From the NCBI RefSeq assembly GCF_044324785.1, contig NZ_CP172128.1: 64,000 nucleotides of DNA; one strand, written 5' to 3'. The stretch is from Escherichia coli (GTDB taxonomy: Bacteria; Pseudomonadota; Gammaproteobacteria; Enterobacterales; Enterobacteriaceae). Positions 51,101 to 63,100 of the stretch are shown here, piece after piece. The position numbers were made by a program. Position 1 is the first letter of the stretch. Every line of letters starts with the position of its first letter.

Positions 51101-54100
51101 ATGCGCGAGGTTACCGACTGCGGCCTGAGTTTTTTAAGTGACGTAAAATCGTGTTGAGGACAACGCCCATAATGCGGGCTGTTGCCCGGCATCCAACGCC
51201 ATTCATGGCCATATCAATGATTTTCTGGTGCGTACCGGGTTGAGAAGCGGTGTAAGTGAACTGCAGTTGCCATGTTTTACGGCAGTGAGAGCAGAGATAG
51301 CGCTGATGTCCGGCGGTGCTTTTGCCGTTACGCACCACCCCGTCAGTAGCTGAACAGGAGGGACAGCTGATAGAAACAGAAGCCACTGGAGCACCTCAAA
51401 AACACCATCATATACTAAATCAGTAAGTTGGCAGCATCACCCAAGGGGCCAGTCTAGCAGATTATGGTGCGCAGTTATACAACAGCAGTAATGAGGAGTC
51501 TACTATTTCTCTTGTTATGCCAGATGCAATTGAATGGAACGGAAAGAATACGCCAAGACGGCAATACATGATAAAATATATTGCCGTATTTAAATATTAA
51601 AATTTATTTTTGTAGATTATCTGAATTTTCGGTGACCTTCAAGTTTTATATCGTTCATTTTATCCAGAGACTCACGTAATGATTCTATATCCCCGTCCTC
51701 AACTTTCTTTTTTGCAATATTGATTTCATGTTGTAGTTTTTTTAACTCTTCCTTATAACTATCTACAGAAACTTTATCATTAACATCTATCTTTTCAGGA
51801 ATAATATTCATAGAAGAATCTACAGATTTATCCATCATTTCAAGAGCATTTAATAGTGATGATTTATCATTGGAAGATTGTAGAATACTCATACTTTTGG
51901 CAAGAGACTGCATGTTTTTATCCAGGCCGGAAGCCAAAGATACGTTGCTGAGAGATAAAAAAATAGCTAGTACAGCACCTGAGAAAAATACCTTTTGTTT
52001 TTTCATTAATATATTCCTGTTCAAAGTTGATTATAGTTATGTCAATTTAAGTTTATTATTATGATTTTTTATTTTTGTACTATGAATCTCCTGTATGCTT
52101 ATATGTGCAGAAAATCTCATTTTATCAAGAAGAATATCAAATTTTCTCCGATACTTCTACATACTCCATCATTCATGCTCCTTTTATCCGTGCACCGTAA
52201 AACCCCGTCCTTCAGCGGGGATATAAGGCGCTGTTTTCCACCTAACCAGGTGTCTGCTGCTATTCAATGTATTGGCGGATGACGGATGCCGCCCGTTGAA
52301 GCAGGAACCCTCGTCCTTAGGGCGTGGAGGATGTCAAAATGAAAACTTGTGGTATGAATCAATCCATTCATCATCCTTTCGGATCATTGCATTCAGTATA
52401 ACGCTGGAAGAGCCTGGCAATATCACTGTATTGATGGTATTACGCCATGAATTGCTTATTTCTTAAATACGACATGCACCACAGACAGGCTTTTCCTATA
52501 CCATCGGAACGAGCGGCAAGAAATAACTTGGTGGCGTGTTTATGTTCGCGCATTGGCTTTTTAAGCAATTTACCTCTGTTCAATAACGGCAATGCCAGAT
52601 GATGTGGAATATAACCAATACCGACGTTTTGTTCTATTAAGCTGATTGCCATGGCGAAGTCAGGAACAAAAATAGGTTTTTGTCCTTCCAACAACCAGGC
52701 TTGCATTGGGGGGAAGTTAACGGAGGTATCCCGGATACAAACCGCAGGATAATGACGCAATTCACTGTTTTCTAATGGATTCCGCTTCACTGCCAGTGGA
52801 TGAAGTGGGCTGACGACAAAATCCCATTCTATTTGTCCGACCGGTTCGCTAATGATGCCTTCACTGCTTGGTACTGCATGAGGAGCACCGTAGACCAGAT
52901 CAGCACGTTTACTGTACAGCGCATCCCAGCAGCCGTTGTATACTTCAATATCTACCGTCAGTGTTGTTGATGTGAATTGCCGTTCAAAATCTTGAATAAA
53001 TGACACCAGAAAATCACCAGGTATAATATTGTTCACCGCAATTGTCAGTTCACGCTCAATACCATCGTGAATCAGCACTGTGTTGCGCTTTAATGCATCC
53101 AGATCGCGGAGAATATTTTTGCTATGTTCGATGAAGTAACTCCCCGCCGGAGATAATTCAATATATCGTCCCTTACGAATGAACAGTTCAACGCCCAGGG
53201 TTTCTTCCGCTTTCTTCAGGGTGTAACTGATAGTAGAAGGGACTTTATTTAACTGTTCGGCTGCGGTGGTGATGTTCTGGTGTCTGGCGACCAGATGAAT
53301 AATTCGAATCGTTTCGTCTGAGATGAACATAAGGCTCCCTGGTCAGTGGTAAAGTGGCTGAATCTCTCCAGATTCAGCCGTAATCATTGCCTGAGTATAC
53401 CCAGGAATTAGCGGTGTTGACTTGCCCGACTGAGAATCGCATACGCGATACATGCCACCAGAATGGAGTCAACTGAAGGGATCGTCGTCAGGGTGAATAA
53501 GCCTTTTACGGTCATAAAGCCAACCGCTGTGCCTGTGATCCATGCAGCGAATGTCAGTACTTTAACCTGTGACTCCTGAGTTAACACCGACTCTTGATAG
53601 CCATTACGGCGATAAAGGAAAAAGTCAGCGATATAAATTCCGGCAACTGGGGGAGTCGCGATACCCAGGAACAGCAGAAACGGAATAAACCACGCCATAA
53701 TATCCATACTGCCTACGATGGCGGAAAGGATACCCAGCGCAACGGTAATCTGCCATTTGGGAAAGCGGCTAAGCAGTGTGGAAACTACCAACGTCCCCTG
53801 GAACATATTGCCCGCATTACCGGTGACGCAGGCGAATATCAGCAACAGTGCTGCAGGCATAACCGCACCGAATACTGCCATAGCATTCAGTAAAGAGCCC
53901 TGGCCGCTAATGGCACTCGGCGTTGCACCCGCCCAGTATAGCAGAGGGTAGGCAACCAGAAACGTCATACCTGCGGCAATCAGAGCATGTTTTCGGTTAT
54001 GTACAAAACTACCGAAGTCGGGAAGTGTAGCAACCAGAACAATAATAGTGCCAACAACGGTGGAAACGGCGACACCTGTACTCATCTCCGCTATCGCTGC

Positions 54101-60100: not shown

Positions 60101-63100
60101 TCATTTGCTTCACGCACGGTGGTGGTTACGCAAACTTCGGTAGTCACGCCACAAACAATAAGTGTCTTGATACCACGCTTTTGCAAAATCAGATGTAAGT
60201 CGGTTTGATAAAAAGCGCCTTTACCGGGTTTATCAATCACAGGTTCGCCTGTCACTGGATACAGTTCAGGAATGATGTCATGACCTGCCTCACCCCTGAC
60301 CAGAATGCGTCCCATCGGTCCTGGTTCACCAATAAAGGTTTTTCCGCCGCGCGTCAGTTTGGCTGATGGGCAGTCGCTTAAGTCTTCACGATGGCCTTCA
60401 CGGGTATGAATAACCATAATTCCTTTTTGACGTGCGGCTACCAGAACTTCTTTACATGGTGCGATAGCCGTGCGAACCAGTGAAACATCATTACCCAATG
60501 CTTCTCCAAACCCTCCTGCTTCGACAAAATCACGTTGCATGTCTATCATGATCAGTGCCGTTGTGCACGGATCAAAGGGTAATTCAAAGGGTTGAGCCTG
60601 AAAAATGGATATCGTCATGACAAATCTCCAGTATATATTGTTTACTGGTGACGAGTATTCAATATAAAGGTGACCCACAACAGAAAAAAAAGTTGTTTTA
60701 CAGGAGCGAATATTTTTGAGGTGTCTAAATGTTGTTATGAAAAATGTGATTTATATCAATCTATGACATTCATAAACAACTTTTTTCAAATGTTTATTTG
60801 TTTAATATTAAAAAAATTGTCGATATATTGTGATATTAATCATCCTATTTGGCAGGGATAGTGCTGATTTTTAACAAATACCCCTTACATCCGTCCTTCA
60901 ACGGGGATATAAAGCGCTGTTTTCCACCTAACCAGGTGTCTGCTGCTATTCAATGTATTGGCGGATGACGGATGCCGCCCGTTGAAGCAGGAACCCACGT
61001 CCTTAGGGCGTGGAGGATGTCAAATACCCGCCCTCATTGAGAGAGAAGCTACGAGATTTTCGCTAAGGGACACAGGTCATACGGGAGATGGCGGTTCCCA
61101 GCGTTTATCCTGCTCCGGCGGAGGCAGTGATGCGTCATCGTTGCTGTTCGCCGCGATATAATCGCGGTAGTAGCGTTCACTTCCTTCCCGGTGATGATCC
61201 ACATCCGGTCGTGTAATCCTGTAGTCTTCGTGACCGGTACGGCCTGTCACATTATGCCAGGCAACCATTTCAGCAAAGACCTGGTTAAATTGTTTGTCGT
61301 TTCCTTCTGGTTCAAAGCCCATTCTGGGATCACGCTCAAACAATACAGGTGCAATCAAATCCAGTTTATCTGCCAGCGCATTGCGGTCATGGTGATTACG
61401 GAAAACAACCCTGTCACCATAATCCGTACAGACAAACTCTCCCGTCCGACGGTCACGGAAACGAACACTCCCGTTCTTCTGCAAACGGGCCTCGAGATCA
61501 CCGGTATTACCGTATACCGGCGTTCCGCCCGGTTCACAAAGCACGACACAGCGGTCTGTTGTTGTTGTGCGTGACTTGTCTTTACGGCGATCGCGATAAT
61601 CCCAGCCTCTCAACTGCGATACAGCAGCCCTGTCTCCCTGAGCAGCCTGAATTTCGACCCACTGACGGTAAGAGGGTGGATACCACTTCCCGTCAGCAAT
61701 AAGTTTCTGTCGCTCATCCCTGATGTCTTCTTTCAGCCTGATCAACGCCTGCATTCGCTGAACTTCTGCAATGTGATAATGCAGCTTACGTAATGCCGGA
61801 TCATCGTACTGCGCACGAATGTGTGACTTCCGCAGACGGCATGCCTGATGAATTTCCCGACAACGTTCCCCATTACGCAGATCTGGTTTACGCCATTGTT
61901 CACGCCATGCCAGATAGCGGGCACGCAGGTCAGCACGGGCCTCAGCTCTGGCTTCACGTCGCTGCCGGCGCAGCATTGGGTCACGTTTACTGCTGACCCC
62001 GTACCTGTCACTGACAGCCAGCTCCGGGTTATAGCGACTTTCAGGTTGCACCCTGTCAAACAAATCTGCTGGGGCACTCACAAAAGGTCCGGCCTGTGGC
62101 TCTGCACGCCCCAGAGTCAGATCAGGATGAATGCTGCTGGCCTTCACCGGCGTTTGCTCATGATTAAAGGCATCAACGACAACAAGCCCGTGATGTTGTT
62201 TCTGTAGCATCAGTCCCTGTTGTGCAAACAGCTCATGACAACGCTGCCAGGTAAACTCACCCTGTGTGATCATTTCTTCAATCTGAGGGCTACAATGGCT
62301 GATGCTGTATCCCCACAGACTTTCTTTATCAGAAAACAGTTCGCGTTTGATAGCCCCCTGCGGCCCCGTGCCTGTACGCATACGGTGCCATTCTTTATCG
62401 GTCGCAGGACAGCTCTCCATACGACGACCACGGAAGCGTTCTGTTGGCGTAACCTGGCGGAAAATATCTGTTGGTACAGGCTGCCAGCCACCATCGAGTT
62501 GATTCACATTGTCGAGCGTCAGCAGTGACCATACGCTGTCAGCACGAACGGGAGTCTGGTTATGATATTTTTCGGATCCCGGTGAAAAAAGAGAGAAACA
62601 TGCAGATACCATGCATATCCATATGTTTGGCATCTGCATATGACAGGCATACGCATATCTCACACATCTGCATATCTATAACATATACATATGTATCACA
62701 TCTGCATATACTAAACATATATAAAAGCCGTCTTGCCAGGAGGAAGACATGAGAACCGTATCTATTTTCAAAAATGGCAATAACCGCGCGATCCGTCTGC
62801 CCCGCGATCTGGATTTTGAGGGGGTGAGTGAGCTGGAGATTGTACGGGAAGGGGACAGAATCATTCTGCGTCCCCTCCGCCCGAGCTGGAGCTCATTCCT
62901 GGAGCTAGAAAAGGCCGATCCGGGCTTTATGACGGAACGCGAGGACGTTGTCTGCGACGAAGGACGATTTAACCTGTGAACAAGATCTATATGCTCGACA
63001 CGAACATCTGCTCGTTCATCATGCGCGAGCAGCCTGAAGCAGTGCTTAAGAATCTGGAGCAGGCGGTGCTGCGCGGTCACCGTATAGTGGTCTCGGCCAT

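What the first reader, a model, noticed from the sequence alone, without database searches (positions are those of the whole stretch)
52190..61025. Direct-repeat-flanked catabolic island: hydrolase, DUF2877, FdrA, DUF1116, carbamate kinase, AIG2-like, NCS1 permease, LysR
Near-identical ~140-bp direct repeats bracket a co-directional operon that resembles the chromosomal ylbEF-fdrA-arcC / yahEFGI-type carbamoyl-transfer and carbamate-kinase systems. It is combined here with a nucleobase/hydantoin-type NCS1 permease, an isochorismatase-family hydrolase and an AIG2-like protein, and its substrate is unknown. The repeats suggest acquisition or excision as a unit by site-specific or homologous recombination.
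Basis: partly seen in the sequence, partly recalled or inferred. Interest (0 to 1): 0.5.

Follow-up and report, generated by a model that had tools for sequence, protein, structure and literature searches.

The report
Ureide-catabolism island flanked by IS609 remnants
An eight-gene nitrogen-scavenging operon on an E. coli ColV-type virulence plasmid is bracketed by two copies of a gutted IS609 insertion sequence, which allow ordinary homologous recombination to delete it as a block; the architecture is ordinary, but what this very widespread operon degrades (my best guess is triuret, a urate oxidation product) has never been tested.

Summary
A 134-nt direct repeat (52205-52338 and 60891-61024, 3 mismatches) brackets eight co-directional minus-strand genes.

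**The repeats.** They are not att sites. Each is a miniature IS609-like element (IS200/IS605 family): about 100 nt of left end fused to about 50 nt of right end, with tnpA and tnpB deleted. Copy 1 is complete (52188-52337, abutting TTAT). Copy 2 lacks the first 17 nt of the left end.

**Loss as a unit.** Four sequenced plasmids and one metagenome contig carry cybC, a single hybrid repeat and nikB' with no island. This is the product expected from homologous recombination between the repeats.

**The operon.** It is not the allantoin locus. It is a diverged allele (94.5% nt, dN/dS 0.06-0.28) of a cassette found between metE and ysgA in about 29% of complete E. coli genomes. The same gene order occurs in Vibrio, Psychrobacter, Dyella, Edwardsiella and Caballeronia.

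**Function.** The hydrolase carries the triuret-hydrolase (TrtA) residue at all six positions reported to separate TrtA from biuret hydrolase. The AllF/G/H-like subunits are only 31-48% identical to the E. coli oxamic transcarbamylase. I infer import of a triuret-like ureide, hydrolysis, phosphorolysis to carbamoyl phosphate, and ATP formation by carbamate kinase. The substrate is untested.

Verdict: an ordinary IS-remnant-flanked plasmid module, with moderate interest in its biochemistry.

The parts
52188..52337 (+). Miniature IS609-like element, copy 1 (complete, 150 nt). The left end is 52188-52287 and the fused right end is 52288-52337. It is preceded by TTAT (52184-52187) and ends in ...GGAGGATGTCAA. 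The 134-nt repeat proper is 52205-52338.
   Evidence: The left end is 91% identical over 109 nt to the left end of K-12 IS609. The right-end pieces are 100% and 90% identical. The boundaries were defined against five independent full-length elements, all of which start after TTAT and end at GTCAA. There is no room for tnpA or tnpB.
60891..61023 (+). Miniature IS609-like element, copy 2. It has the same left-end/right-end deletion junction as copy 1 but lacks the first 17 nt of the left end. The break lies inside the left-end hairpin stem.
   Evidence: The sequence left of 60891 (…CCCCTTACAT) does not align to any IS609 left end. The right end is intact.
59950..60618 (-). Cysteine (isochorismatase-like) hydrolase of the TrtA/BiuH family with the triuret-hydrolase (TrtA) residue signature. 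Predicted first enzyme of the pathway.
   Evidence: Best PDB match is TrtA 6XIX (269 bits), ahead of BiuH 6AZO (241 bits) and RutB (109 bits). Identity is 58% to TrtA and 53.5% to BiuH. The catalytic D/K/C and all six TrtA-versus-BiuH positions are TrtA-type. The NCBIfam BiuH score of 278 is below the cut-off of 370.
59084..59944 (-). DUF2877 / AllH-like subunit.
   Evidence: Homologues carry PF11392 AllH. RefSeq annotates 'oxamate carbamoyltransferase subunit AllH family protein'. About 31% identity to K-12 AllH over 111 aa.
57430..58989 (-). FdrA / AllF-like subunit.
   Evidence: NCBIfam NF004760 FdrA, 491 bits against a cut-off of 433. 40% identical to K-12 AllF.
56009..57433 (-). DUF1116 / AllG-like subunit.
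   Evidence: PF06545 AllG in homologues. 48% identical to K-12 AllG. Its start overlaps the AllF-like stop by 4 nt.
55060..56016 (-). Carbamate kinase.
   Evidence: TIGR00746 arcC, 368 bits against a cut-off of 358. 39% identical to K-12 AllK.
54654..55043 (-). Stand-alone allophanate-hydrolase C-terminal-domain (AH_C, GGCT-like) protein, 129 aa. Role unknown.
   Evidence: Pfam AH_C, E = 4.7e-42; GGACT/AIG2-like, E = 0.0011. Close to identical (about 93% by eye from the printed alignment) to PDB 5C5Z. It aligns to the C-domain of allophanate hydrolases 4ISS and 4GYR.
53408..54628 (-). NCS1-family permease (distant CodB-like); predicted importer of the substrate.
   Evidence: NCBIfam cytosine permease, 148 bits against a cut-off of 326; TIGR00800 NCS1.
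52440..53330 (-). LysR-type regulator, closest to PunR and AllS (regulators of purine and allantoin genes).
   Evidence: NF008294 PunR, 276 bits (cut-off 345); NF007501 AllS, 205 bits (cut-off 372).
60619..60890 (-). Upstream intergenic (promoter/operator) region of the operon. It is the right-hand edge of the island DNA.
   Evidence: 67% similar over 227 nt to the hydrolase-ysgA intergenic region of the chromosomal cassette. The sigma-70 scan found nothing above background on the minus strand.
51617..52024 (-). Left flank (not part of the island): cytochrome b562 paralogue (cybC-like). It travels with copy 1 in all replicons.
   Evidence: NF011632, 65 bits, below the cut-off. RefSeq annotates cytochrome b562. 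Chromosomal derivatives carry cybC, copy 1, 69 bp and then IS1.
61084..62566 (-). Right flank (not part of the island): 3' fragment of an IncI1-type nikB relaxase gene. It is separated from copy 2 by 60 bp of unassigned DNA.
   Evidence: 98-98.6% identical to IncI1 nikB. NCBIfam TraI/MobA(P) partial match. RefSeq annotates 'NikB, incomplete'.

Best explanation
**Structure (high confidence, about 0.9).** The window is part of an E. coli ColV/APEC-type IncF plasmid.
- The two direct repeats are copies of one defective miniature derivative of an IS609-like insertion sequence (IS200/IS605 family, tnpA plus tnpB type). About 100 nt of left end is fused to about 50 nt of right end, and both genes are deleted.
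- Both copies share the same internal deletion junction, so they descend from one mini-element.
- They no longer behave as a mobile element. Every copy found is in this single context.
- They act as 134 bp of portable homology. Recombination between them deletes the 8.55-kb cassette and leaves one hybrid copy. This state is seen in nature.
- The reverse reaction, integration of a cassette circle at a solo copy, is the most likely way the cassette entered the plasmid. This step is inferred.

**Cargo (shown).** The cargo is a complete, selectively maintained, diverged allele of an eight-gene cassette. The same cassette sits between metE and ysgA in about 29% of complete E. coli genomes. It also occurs in the same gene order in many gamma- and beta-proteobacteria.

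**Function (inferred, about 0.35 for the specific substrate).**
1. The NCS1 permease imports a small ureide derived from purine or urate, most likely triuret.
2. The TrtA-type cysteine hydrolase converts a terminal amide to a carboxylate, giving carboxybiuret plus NH3.
3. The AllF/G/H-like three-subunit carbamoyltransferase phosphorolyses this oxalurate-like N-carbamoyl acid, and possibly the resulting allophanate, to carbamoyl phosphate.
4. Carbamate kinase converts carbamoyl phosphate plus ADP to ATP, NH3 and CO2.
5. The AH_C protein assists breakdown of a carboxylated intermediate.
6. The LysR regulator induces the operon.

The net effect would be nitrogen, and some ATP, from a ureide in a urease-negative host.
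For: **Repeats are IS609 ends**
- The left end is 91% identical over 109 nt to K-12 IS609. The right-end segments are 100% and 90-92% identical.
- The same holds against a full tnpA-tnpB element on pISHS7_3. Its proteins are IS200 TnpA and TnpB.
- Five independent full-length insertions all begin after TTAT and end at GTCAA, as copy 1 does.

**No independent mobility**
- All full-length matches in 72,556 plasmids, 5,426 E. coli genomes and the metagenome scan lie in the cybC...nikB' context or are IS1-truncated derivatives of it. The species-representative genome scan returned no hit.

**Deletion through the repeats**
- pE32-3, two sister plasmids, NZ_CP033633 and contig L033 have a single copy. 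It carries the copy-1 alleles at the first two SNPs and the copy-2 allele at the third, with the left flank of copy 1 and the right flank of copy 2.
- These plasmids share the IS1-cybC junction with the window, whereas p1ColV5155 and p1337a have an IS3-family element there. About 120 replicons keep the island. I read the empty site as a secondary loss.

**Cargo**
- 1,555 of 5,426 genomes carry the cassette at about 94.5% nt identity over window 52446-60632, between metE and ysgA.
- dN/dS is 0.06-0.28 and dS is 0.09-0.31 for all eight genes.
- The same order occurs in Enterobacteriaceae, Edwardsiella, Caballeronia, Vibrio, Psychrobacter and Dyella; Avibacterium carries the same gene set, rearranged. 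Neighbours are unrelated, and biuH, atzF or urease are never present.

**Function**
- The hydrolase is nearest to TrtA and is TrtA-type at all 6 discriminating residues, as are the 120 closest homologues (119-120 at each position) (residues taken from PMC7948467).
- AllFGH is a three-subunit oxamic transcarbamylase that makes carbamoyl phosphate from oxalurate, and AllK is the catabolic carbamate kinase (PMC11326118, PMC9843812).
- The cassette paralogues are only 31-48% identical to these, so a different N-carbamoyl substrate is plausible.
- Carboxybiuret differs from oxalurate by one NH group (chemistry; my inference).
- The regulator is closest to PunR and AllS.
- Triuret is a urate oxidation product detected in human urine (PMC7948467). 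The cassette is enriched in UPEC-type chromosomes and avian-pathogenic plasmids.
Against: - No experiment bears on the substrate. The TrtA signature was defined on enzymes that co-occur with BiuH and AtzF, which are absent here. At 58% identity the specificity could differ.
- The role of AH_C is unexplained. The second phosphorolysis (of allophanate) is pure inference.
- A 2026 paper proposes pyrimidine (Rut-like) nitrogen scavenging for the chromosomal cassette (PMC12928451).
- On structure, the SNP pattern of the empty site is formally also compatible with its being ancestral, with insertion of a circle by the same recombination.
- The donor lineage of the plasmid allele was not found.
- Why copy 2 lacks 17 nt of the left end is not explained.
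- RecA dependence is assumed, not shown.
Confidence: 0.72

Rival explanations
1. The two mini-IS609 copies form a composite single-strand ('peel and paste') transposon. IS609 TnpA supplied in trans cuts at the intact left end of copy 1 and the intact right end of copy 2, and moves the whole 8.8-kb unit.
For: Copy 1 has a complete left end next to TTAT, and copy 2 has a complete right end ending in TCAA, in the same orientation. The truncated left end of copy 2 would prevent it from excising on its own. IS609-like sequences are present in 4,926 of 5,426 E. coli genomes, and some have an intact tnpA.
Against: Only one insertion context exists in all collections searched. The observed loss product keeps a hybrid repeat; excision from the left end of copy 1 to the right end of copy 2 would leave none. 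The chromosomal cassettes have no IS609 ends. From my own knowledge, IS608-type excision efficiency falls steeply with element length beyond about 2 kb.
Confidence: 0.06
2. The repeats are attL/attR sites of an integrative island that a site-specific recombinase inserts and excises.
For: Direct repeats flank a discrete accessory unit that is present or absent among otherwise near-identical plasmids.
Against: There is no integrase or recombinase gene inside or adjacent to the island. The whole repeat is explained by IS609 left-end plus right-end homology. The crossover in the empty site lies somewhere in a 84-nt interval between SNPs, as expected for homologous recombination. No tRNA or Rfam feature is present.
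Confidence: 0.02
3. The empty-site plasmids are ancestral. A solo, complete mini-IS609 sat between cybC and nikB', and a cassette circle carrying a 5'-truncated copy integrated there by homologous recombination. On this reading the repeats record acquisition rather than loss.
For: The solo copy has the complete left end, while the internal copy 2 is the truncated one. The SNP pattern (G,G,A against G,G,T plus A,A,A) fits a single crossover in either direction.
Against: The empty site is found in only 4 of about 125 replicons, three of them from one study. Those plasmids share the IS1-cybC junction with the island-bearing window, whereas p1ColV5155 and p1337a have an IS3-family element at that junction. 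I read the IS1 arrangement as derived. Chromosomal fragments derive from the island-bearing form.
Confidence: 0.12
4. The operon is a second oxalurate/allantoin branch (oxamic transcarbamylase plus carbamate kinase). On this reading it simply duplicates allFGHK.
For: It has AllF-, AllG- and AllH-family subunits plus carbamate kinase. The published reading of similar clusters in nitrifier MAGs is 'oxalurate degradation' (PMC12625717).
Against: Identity to the characterised AllFGH and AllK is only 31-48%. The cluster is never linked to allB/C/D/E but is always linked to a TrtA-type hydrolase, AH_C and an NCS1 permease. Oxalurate needs no amidase step. The hosts already carry allFGHK.
Confidence: 0.12
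5. The operon degrades a pyrimidine (a Rut-like route, as proposed for 'GR 29' of APEC BEN2908) or biuret itself (the JGI annotation is 'biuret amidohydrolase').
For: There is a CodB-like permease and a RutB-like hydrolase (PMC12928451). The NCBIfam BiuH model is the top hit.
Against: The hydrolase is far closer to TrtA and BiuH (269 and 241 bits) than to RutB (109 bits). No RutA or other Rut genes are present. The BiuH score is below the curated cut-off, and all six discriminating residues are TrtA-type rather than BiuH-type. The permease scores 148 bits against a CodB cut-off of 326.
Confidence: 0.15

Closest known systems
IS609 (IS200/IS605 family, tnpA plus tnpB/insQ; the K-12 copy lies between ydcL and ydcO) and its MITE-like derivatives (PATEs, palindrome-associated transposable elements)
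   Same: The left and right ends are homologous (88-100%). Subterminal hairpins are present. The left end abuts TTAT and the right end finishes in TCAA. There are no inverted terminal repeats and no target duplication.
   Different: The element is 150 nt with no genes, and its right end carries an extra 42-nt internal deletion. Copy 2 lacks 17 nt of the left end. There is no sign of transposition, since only one genomic context is known. It functions only as a homology patch.
Chromosomal metE-ysgA cassette of E. coli (BL21, UPEC 536, E2348/69; 'GR 29' of APEC BEN2908, PMC12928451). From memory, unverified: c4760-c4767 of CFT073, with c4763 corresponding to PDB 5C5Z.
   Same: The same eight genes in the same order and orientation. 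94.5% nt and 91-98% aa identity.
   Different: The plasmid copy is a diverged allele (dS 0.09-0.31) with different flanking DNA. It is bracketed by mini-IS609 copies that the chromosomal locus lacks. It is carried on a conjugative ColV-type plasmid, in some strains apparently alongside a chromosomal copy (inferred from the place and genome totals).
AllFGH oxamic transcarbamylase plus AllK carbamate kinase of E. coli K-12 (PMC11326118, PMC9843812)
   Same: Three-subunit FdrA/DUF1116/DUF2877 enzyme family followed by a carbamate kinase. The likely logic is phosphorolysis of an N-carbamoyl acid to carbamoyl phosphate and then ATP.
   Different: 40%, 48%, 31% and 39% identity. The gene order is H-F-G-K rather than F-G-H-K. 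It is coupled to a TrtA-type hydrolase, AH_C, an NCS1 permease and its own LysR regulator, rather than to allECD.
Triuret/biuret pathway TrtA-(TrtB)-BiuH-AtzF (PMC7948467)
   Same: The first enzyme belongs to the same cysteine-hydrolase family. It has the catalytic triad, the substrate-binding residues and all six TrtA-specific positions.
   Different: There is no BiuH, no TrtB and no amidase-signature allophanate hydrolase. Only the AH C-domain is present, as a separate 129-aa protein. Downstream chemistry is apparently replaced by an AllFGH-type enzyme plus carbamate kinase. Identity to TrtA is 58%.
yahB-yahD-yahEFG-type cluster (LysR, ankyrin, DUF2877, FdrA, DUF1116), present as a second and partly decayed copy on related ColV plasmids
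   Same: Same enzyme family and the same H-F-G gene order.
   Different: 34-48% identity. It has no TrtA-type hydrolase, AH_C or NCS1 permease. It is not present in this window.

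Membership tests
IS200/IS605-family (IS609-like) miniature element (PATE/MITE) | Left end homologous to a family member, with a subterminal hairpin | tested here: met
   91% over 109 nt to the K-12 IS609 left end; 79% to the pISHS7_3 element. The hairpin is CCCCG-N8-CGGGG.
IS200/IS605-family (IS609-like) miniature element (PATE/MITE) | Right end homologous, terminating at the conserved cleavage motif (…GTCAA) | tested here: met
   Both copies end in GGAGGATGTCAA, as do four full-length elements; the flanks diverge immediately afterwards.
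IS200/IS605-family (IS609-like) miniature element (PATE/MITE) | No transposase (tnpA) or tnpB; ends fused | tested here: met
   150 nt in total. The left-end/right-end junction ...GACGGAT|GCCGCCCGT is identical in both copies.
IS200/IS605-family (IS609-like) miniature element (PATE/MITE) | Left end abuts the family's conserved target tetranucleotide, with no target-site duplication | tested here: inconclusive
   Copy 1: TTAT|CCGTGC..., as in five full-length insertions, with no duplication. Copy 2: lacks the first 17 nt and follows ...TTACAT.
IS200/IS605-family (IS609-like) miniature element (PATE/MITE) | Evidence of mobility: copies at several independent sites | tested here: not met
   All full-length matches lie in the cybC...nikB' context or are its IS1-truncated derivatives. 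There were 0 hits in 100,044 species genomes. The 6 metagenome hits all share the same context.
Classical composite transposon | Two IS copies, at least one encoding an active transposase | tested here: not met
   Neither copy encodes any protein, and there is no full IS609 in the window.
Integrative island with att sites | Cognate integrase or recombinase, and att core repeats | tested here: not met
   None of the eight island genes, nor the two immediate flanks (cybC and the nikB fragment), encodes a recombinase. The repeats are IS ends.
AllFGH oxamic transcarbamylase / AllK pathway | All three subunit families (FdrA, DUF1116, DUF2877) plus carbamate kinase encoded together | tested here: met
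   NCBIfam FdrA 491 bits (above cut-off) and arcC 368 bits (above cut-off). PF06545 AllG and PF11392 AllH in orthologues.
AllFGH oxamic transcarbamylase / AllK pathway | Orthology to the characterised enzyme and linkage to allantoin genes (allB/C/D/E) | tested here: not met
   31-48% identity. No all genes lie next to the cassette in any of 10 genomic contexts.
AllFGH oxamic transcarbamylase / AllK pathway | Oxalurate + Pi <-> oxamate + carbamoyl phosphate activity | not testable with these tools
   Needs an enzyme assay.
TrtA triuret hydrolase | Cys-Asp-Lys triad and substrate-binding residues (D24, K129, C162, E72, K132, Q202) | tested here: met
   All are conserved in the cassette protein and in 119-120 of its 120 closest homologues.
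TrtA triuret hydrolase | TrtA consensus at the six positions that distinguish it from BiuH (F35, N41, A134, E160, Y187, I205; PMC7948467) | tested here: met
   6 of 6 are TrtA-type; R. leguminosarum BiuH has Y, Y, S, D, T, V.
TrtA triuret hydrolase | Operon partners BiuH and AtzF (canonical triuret pathway) | tested here: not met
   Absent from all contexts examined.
TrtA triuret hydrolase | Triuret-specific hydrolase activity | not testable with these tools
   Needs an enzyme assay.
BiuH biuret hydrolase | Score above the curated NCBIfam cut-off, and BiuH-type specificity residues | tested here: not met
   278 bits against a cut-off of 370. 0 of 6 discriminating residues are BiuH-type.
Allophanate hydrolase (AtzF/AH) | Amidase-signature N-domain plus C-domain | tested here: not met
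   Only the C-domain (PF21986, residues 5-123 of a 129-aa protein) is present.
Rut pyrimidine pathway | RutB equivalog score, and RutA and other rut partners | tested here: not met
   RutB scores 115 bits against a cut-off of 378. No other rut genes are present in the cassette.

The most novel reading that the evidence does not exclude
The cassette encodes an undescribed, ATP-yielding phosphorolytic route for triuret, a non-enzymatic oxidation product of uric acid.
- A TrtA-type hydrolase makes carboxybiuret.
- An AllFGH-family carbamoyltransferase paralogue cleaves carboxybiuret, and then allophanate, to carbamoyl phosphate.
- This would replace the BiuH and AtzF steps and give urease-negative bacteria all four nitrogens plus up to two ATP.
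- On this reading, the second, diverged, plasmid-borne copy in avian-pathogenic E. coli and the chromosomal copy in uropathogenic lineages are adaptations to urate-rich niches such as bird excreta and urine.
Probability: 0.25. Interest if true: 0.65.

Novelty: new member of a known kind. Interest (0 to 1): 0.36.

Why it matters
**Structure.** This is a clean natural example of how the inert stumps of a single-strand (IS200/IS605) insertion sequence turn a chromosomal operon into a block on a virulence plasmid that can be deleted, and probably inserted, as a unit. Both the occupied and the empty states have been sequenced. That is useful for annotation, because the repeats are unannotated in every record examined, but it is not surprising.

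**Biochemistry.**
- The cargo sits in roughly 29% of complete E. coli genomes, including BL21 and classic UPEC strains, and in about 120 ColV-type plasmids.
- It is conserved across proteobacteria and under purifying selection.
- It has one crystal structure and still no demonstrated function.
- It pairs a triuret-hydrolase-type enzyme with a paralogue of the recently discovered three-subunit oxamic transcarbamylase.
- A defined substrate would assign function to a whole branch of the FdrA/DUF1116/DUF2877 family.
- It could also link urate oxidation products to ExPEC and APEC nitrogen nutrition.

Tried and rejected
- **Rfam scan of 48-64 kb, both strands.** The only hit was a spurious miRNA match. 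The repeat is not a known RNA family.
- **Folding of both strands of both copies.** z-scores ranged from +0.18 to -2.71. This gives no convincing evidence for a selected global RNA structure beyond the end hairpins.
- **Promoter and terminator scans around both repeats.** Nothing rose above shuffled expectation, so I make no claim that the repeats insulate or drive the operon.
- **Donor search.** An exact-pattern scan of 100,044 species genomes with the mini-element junction found 0 hits. A peptide-pattern scan with the AllH-like protein found only the E. coli representative at 91%. The donor lineage remains unknown. dS of about 0.2 suggests a divergent Escherichia-like source, but this is inference only.
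- **Metagenome scan.** It returned only the same plasmid context and no new insertion sites.
- **Chromosomal single copies as independent insertions.** Considered and rejected. They carry cybC on one side and 69 bp of island DNA followed by IS1 on the other, so they are fragments of the plasmid module.
- **Allantoin locus identity.** Rejected.
- **Literature on CFT073 locus tags.** This gave no functional data.
- **'AIG2-like' label.** It is only a weak Pfam match (E = 0.0011); AH_C is the proper family.

Full report
**1. Observation**

The repeat finder on 48000-64000 returns one long direct-repeat family: 52205-52338 and 60891-61024, 134 nt, 98% identical, 8686 nt apart. The three differences are at 52215, 52227 and 52311. 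The RefSeq annotation of a near-identical plasmid confirms them.

Two gene pairs overlap: AllF-like/AllG-like by 4 nt and AllG-like/carbamate kinase by 8 nt. This fits one operon.

**2. Replicon and flanks**

The window is 99.7-100% identical to E. coli ColV/APEC-type IncF plasmids: pLH10-b-1-A, p1ColV5155 and, for the repeat-to-nikB' segment, pAPEC-O2-ColV (NC_007675).

- The repeat occurs in 86 PLSDB plasmids (82 Escherichia, 4 Klebsiella, all conjugative), typically two copies per record.
- It occurs in 138 of 5,426 complete E. coli genomes, at 248 plasmid places and 20 chromosomal places.
- The left flank is a cytochrome b562 paralogue.
- The right flank is 60 bp of unassigned DNA followed by a 3' fragment of an IncI1-type nikB (window 61084-62566, 98-98.6% identical to IncI1 plasmids).
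- The 20 chromosomal single copies are not independent insertions. They read IS2, cybC, repeat, 69 bp of island DNA, IS1. They are fragments of the plasmid module.

**3. What the repeat is**

A sensitive BLAST of the repeat hit the end of an annotated IS200/IS605 element. Against the full tnpA-tnpB element on pISHS7_3, the first ~93 nt of the repeat align to the end next to tnpA. The last ~50 nt align to the 3' end of tnpB plus the terminus beyond it. The proteins of that element are an IS200-type TnpA and a TnpB.

The closest relative is the K-12 element between ydcL and ydcO (tnpA pseudogene plus insQ). From my own knowledge this is IS609.
- The left end is 91% identical over 109 nt.
- The right-end segments are 100% identical (23-25 nt) and 90-92% identical (39 nt).

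Five independent full-length insertions (ydcL, a tetR-family gene, yfaY, yeaR and pISHS7_3) fix the termini. All start immediately after TTAT with CCGGTGCGCCGTAAAACCCCGTCC, and the four whose right end was aligned (all but pISHS7_3) end at GGAGGATGTCAA; pISHS7_3 ends the same way.

- Copy 1 is therefore a complete 150-nt miniature element (52188-52337). It consists of about 100 nt of left end fused to about 50 nt of right end. The right end also carries a 42-nt internal deletion between two GAAGCAGGAACCC-like motifs.
- Copy 2 has the identical left-end/right-end junction, so both descend from one mini-element. It lacks the first 17 nt of the left end, and the break falls inside the left-end hairpin stem.

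Nothing of this is annotated in any record examined. Rfam has no match. Folding gives no significant global structure.

**4. Is the mini-element mobile?**

Apparently not.
- All matches covering at least 80% of the repeat in the plasmid and E. coli collections are in this one context.
- An exact scan for the unique left-end/right-end junction found nothing in 100,044 species-representative genomes.
- The same scan found six metagenome stretches, all belonging to the same plasmid region.
- There is no full-length IS609 in the window.

**5. The island is lost as a unit through the repeats**

pE32-3 and two sister plasmids, plus NZ_CP033633, carry cybC, one repeat copy and nikB' with no island. 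One metagenome contig (L033) has the same arrangement.

The single copy has the left flank and first two SNP alleles of copy 1. It has the third SNP allele and right flank of copy 2. That is what one crossover between 52227 and 52311 produces.

TnpA-type excision from the left end of copy 1 to the right end of copy 2 would leave no copy, so this is homologous recombination. RecA dependence is assumed rather than shown.

The empty-site plasmids share the IS1-cybC junction with the island-bearing window, whereas p1ColV5155 and p1337a have an IS3-family element at that junction. About 120 replicons keep the island. I therefore read the empty site as a secondary deletion. The reverse reading, an ancestral solo element with the circle integrated by the same recombination, fits the SNPs equally well. 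I keep it as a rival at about 0.12.

**6. The cargo is not new to E. coli**

The 8.2 kb from the LysR stop to the hydrolase start (window 52446-60632) matches 1,555 of 5,426 complete E. coli genomes at about 94.5% identity. Almost all of these matches are chromosomal.
- In BL21 and UPEC 536 the cassette lies between metE (or an adjacent PTS/tkt island) and ysgA-udp, with no IS609 ends.
- The plasmid allele is diverged: dS 0.09-0.31, aa identity 91-98%. It is under purifying selection in all eight genes (dN/dS 0.06-0.28).
- Only the 107 bp downstream of LysR and the 258-272 bp upstream of the hydrolase are private to the plasmid version. The upstream region is still 67% similar to the chromosomal intergenic region.
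- The donor lineage was not found.
- A 2026 paper describes the chromosomal version as 'GR 29' of APEC BEN2908 and suggests pyrimidine-derived nitrogen scavenging (PMC12928451).
- The 129-aa protein is nearly identical (about 93% by eye from the printed alignment) to PDB 5C5Z. I recall this entry as CFT073 c4763, a 'UPEC-specific' protein; this is unverified.

**7. Conservation beyond E. coli**

The hydrolase has homologues at 78-86% identity in Enterobacteriaceae, Edwardsiella, Vibrio, Photobacterium, Shewanella, Psychrobacter, Avibacterium, Dyella, Silvimonas and Caballeronia.

In seven contexts from six genera the order hydrolase, AllH, AllF, AllG, carbamate kinase, AH_C, NCS1 is preserved, with LysR at the end or upstream. 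Avibacterium carries the same gene set, but with AllH and the carbamate kinase displaced and AllH inverted. The neighbours are unrelated in every case, and there is never a biuH, atzF, urease or allantoin gene. This is a self-contained, horizontally mobile catabolic module.

**8. What it probably does**

- *Regulator.* The LysR regulator is closest to PunR and AllS.
- *Permease.* The permease is a distant CodB-like NCS1 protein (148 bits against a cut-off of 326).
- *Hydrolase.* Its best solved relatives are triuret hydrolase TrtA (6XIX, 269 bits, 58% identity), then biuret hydrolases (241 and 231 bits, 53.5% identity), then RutB (109 bits).
  - The TrtA paper (PMC7948467) names six positions where the TrtA and BiuH consensus differ: F35, N41, A134, E160, Y187 and I205.
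  - The cassette enzyme is TrtA-type at all six, as are its 120 closest homologues (119-120 at each position). The catalytic and substrate-binding residues are kept.
  - It fails the curated BiuH cut-off (278 against 370).
- *AllF/G/H-like proteins.* They belong to the family shown in 2024 to be the three-subunit oxamic transcarbamylase, which catalyses oxalurate + Pi <-> oxamate + carbamoyl phosphate (PMC11326118). They are only 40%, 48% and about 31% identical to it, and about as distant from the yah-type paralogues.
- *Kinase.* It is a bona fide carbamate kinase (above the arcC cut-off).
- *Small protein.* It is a stand-alone allophanate-hydrolase C-domain (Pfam E = 4.7e-42), with only a weak GGACT/AIG2 match.

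My inference runs as follows.
1. A triuret-like ureide is imported.
2. The TrtA-type enzyme converts one terminal amide to a carboxylate. This gives carboxybiuret, which differs from oxalurate by a single NH.
3. The AllFGH paralogue phosphorolyses it, and possibly the resulting allophanate, to carbamoyl phosphate.
4. Carbamate kinase makes ATP and releases NH3 and CO2.

This would explain why BiuH and the amidase domain of AtzF are dispensable in urease-negative hosts. It would also explain why the labile carboxybiuret is not simply left to decarboxylate to biuret, which would be a dead end.

Published work on nitrifier MAGs noted biuH-like genes next to allFGHK and codB but read them as two separate pathways (PMC12625717). 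Triuret arises from urate oxidation and has been detected in human urine (PMC7948467). That fits enrichment of the cassette in UPEC-type chromosomes and poultry-associated plasmids, but this is only a correlation. I put about 0.35 on triuret or a close analogue as the substrate, and about 0.25 on the full phosphorolytic scheme.

**9. Comparison and verdict**

The repeats are IS609 ends in sequence, but they fail the mobility criterion of an active MITE. The unit is not a classical composite transposon and not an integrase-driven island. The operon is a member of the AllFGH/carbamate-kinase enzyme family but not of the allantoin pathway. Its hydrolase meets the sequence criteria for TrtA but not the operon-context criterion.

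Overall this is a new, previously unannotated instance of a known kind of structure: an accessory module flanked by IS remnants. It carries a widespread cassette whose biochemistry is still open. Interest is moderate to low for the architecture and moderate for the biochemistry.

Noticed in passing
window 60875-60883 and 61021-61029: The 9-mer CAAATACCC occurs just left of copy 2, at the island's right edge. It occurs again spanning the junction between the right end of copy 2 and its flank (GTCAA|ATACCC). By a rough estimate the chance of this is about 5e-4 for these two 20-nt windows. It may be a microhomology scar from the event that joined the island to the truncated left end. It remains unexplained.
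   Followed up: partly
window 62614-62725: An array of about 5 imperfect 17-bp repeats (GCATAT-rich; also scored as period 34) lies immediately upstream of the vapB start (62749) of a vapBC toxin-antitoxin pair (62749-63392). It is probably the vapBC operator/promoter region. The segment is 99% conserved in many unrelated plasmids.
   Followed up: partly
window 61084-62566: A 1.5-kb 3' fragment of an IncI1-type nikB relaxase gene (98-98.6% identical to IncI1 plasmids) is embedded in an IncF ColV-type plasmid. It is evidence of past IncI1-IncF recombination.
   Followed up: partly
L002 165-7255 and L010 1-5258 (related plasmids p1ColV5155 and p1337a; not in this window): Related ColV plasmids carry a second, yahBDEFG-like paralogous cluster (LysR, ankyrin-repeat protein, DUF2877, FdrA, DUF1116) about 10 kb from the island. 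It is intact in p1337a. In p1ColV5155 it is decayed, with a frameshifted fdrA and a LysR gene split by an IS3-family element. It shares 34-48% identity with the island proteins.
   Followed up: partly
L003 and L004 (E. coli chromosomes AR13438 and PKF4) 5900-9000: About 20 E. coli chromosomes carry an IS2, cybC, mini-IS609, 69 bp, IS1 fragment of the plasmid module. It lies next to a RelB/DinJ antitoxin and a type I restriction-modification system. This indicates plasmid-to-chromosome transfer of the region.
   Followed up: partly
L007 2496-3814 (K. pneumoniae pK66-45-2) and about 930 Klebsiella plasmids: A roughly 1.3-kb decayed IS609-like element (left and right ends about 88% identical to the mini-element, with no annotated gene inside in the incomplete PLSDB gene table) sits between the sopAB partition genes and a Y-family polymerase gene. 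This is seen in very many Klebsiella IncF plasmids.
   Followed up: no
window 49195-50524: There is a 1.3-kb extra segment relative to the otherwise near-identical plasmid pLH10-b-1-A. It matches, in inverted orientation, the IS3-family (IS2-like) element that flanks cybC in p1ColV5155. This suggests IS1-mediated inversion or rearrangement next to the island.
   Followed up: no
window about 13900-17400, 25600-35300 and 42800-46800: The rest of the window is an IS-dense mosaic. It includes an autotransporter gene (low GC, 0.37-0.41), a raffinose-type sugar utilisation cluster (porin, kinase, PTS IIA, GH32 invertase, MFS transporter, alpha-galactosidase, repressor), and a high-GC (0.62-0.65) ABC transporter plus MFS cluster resembling eitABCD. 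These are ordinary ColV-plasmid cargo.
   Followed up: no
E. coli genomes: From the totals (1,649 places in 1,566 genomes; highest 3 per genome), a number of strains probably carry both the chromosomal and the plasmid allele. If so, the plasmid copy would be a diverged second allele rather than the only one. Whether the two alleles differ in regulation or specificity is unknown.
   Followed up: no
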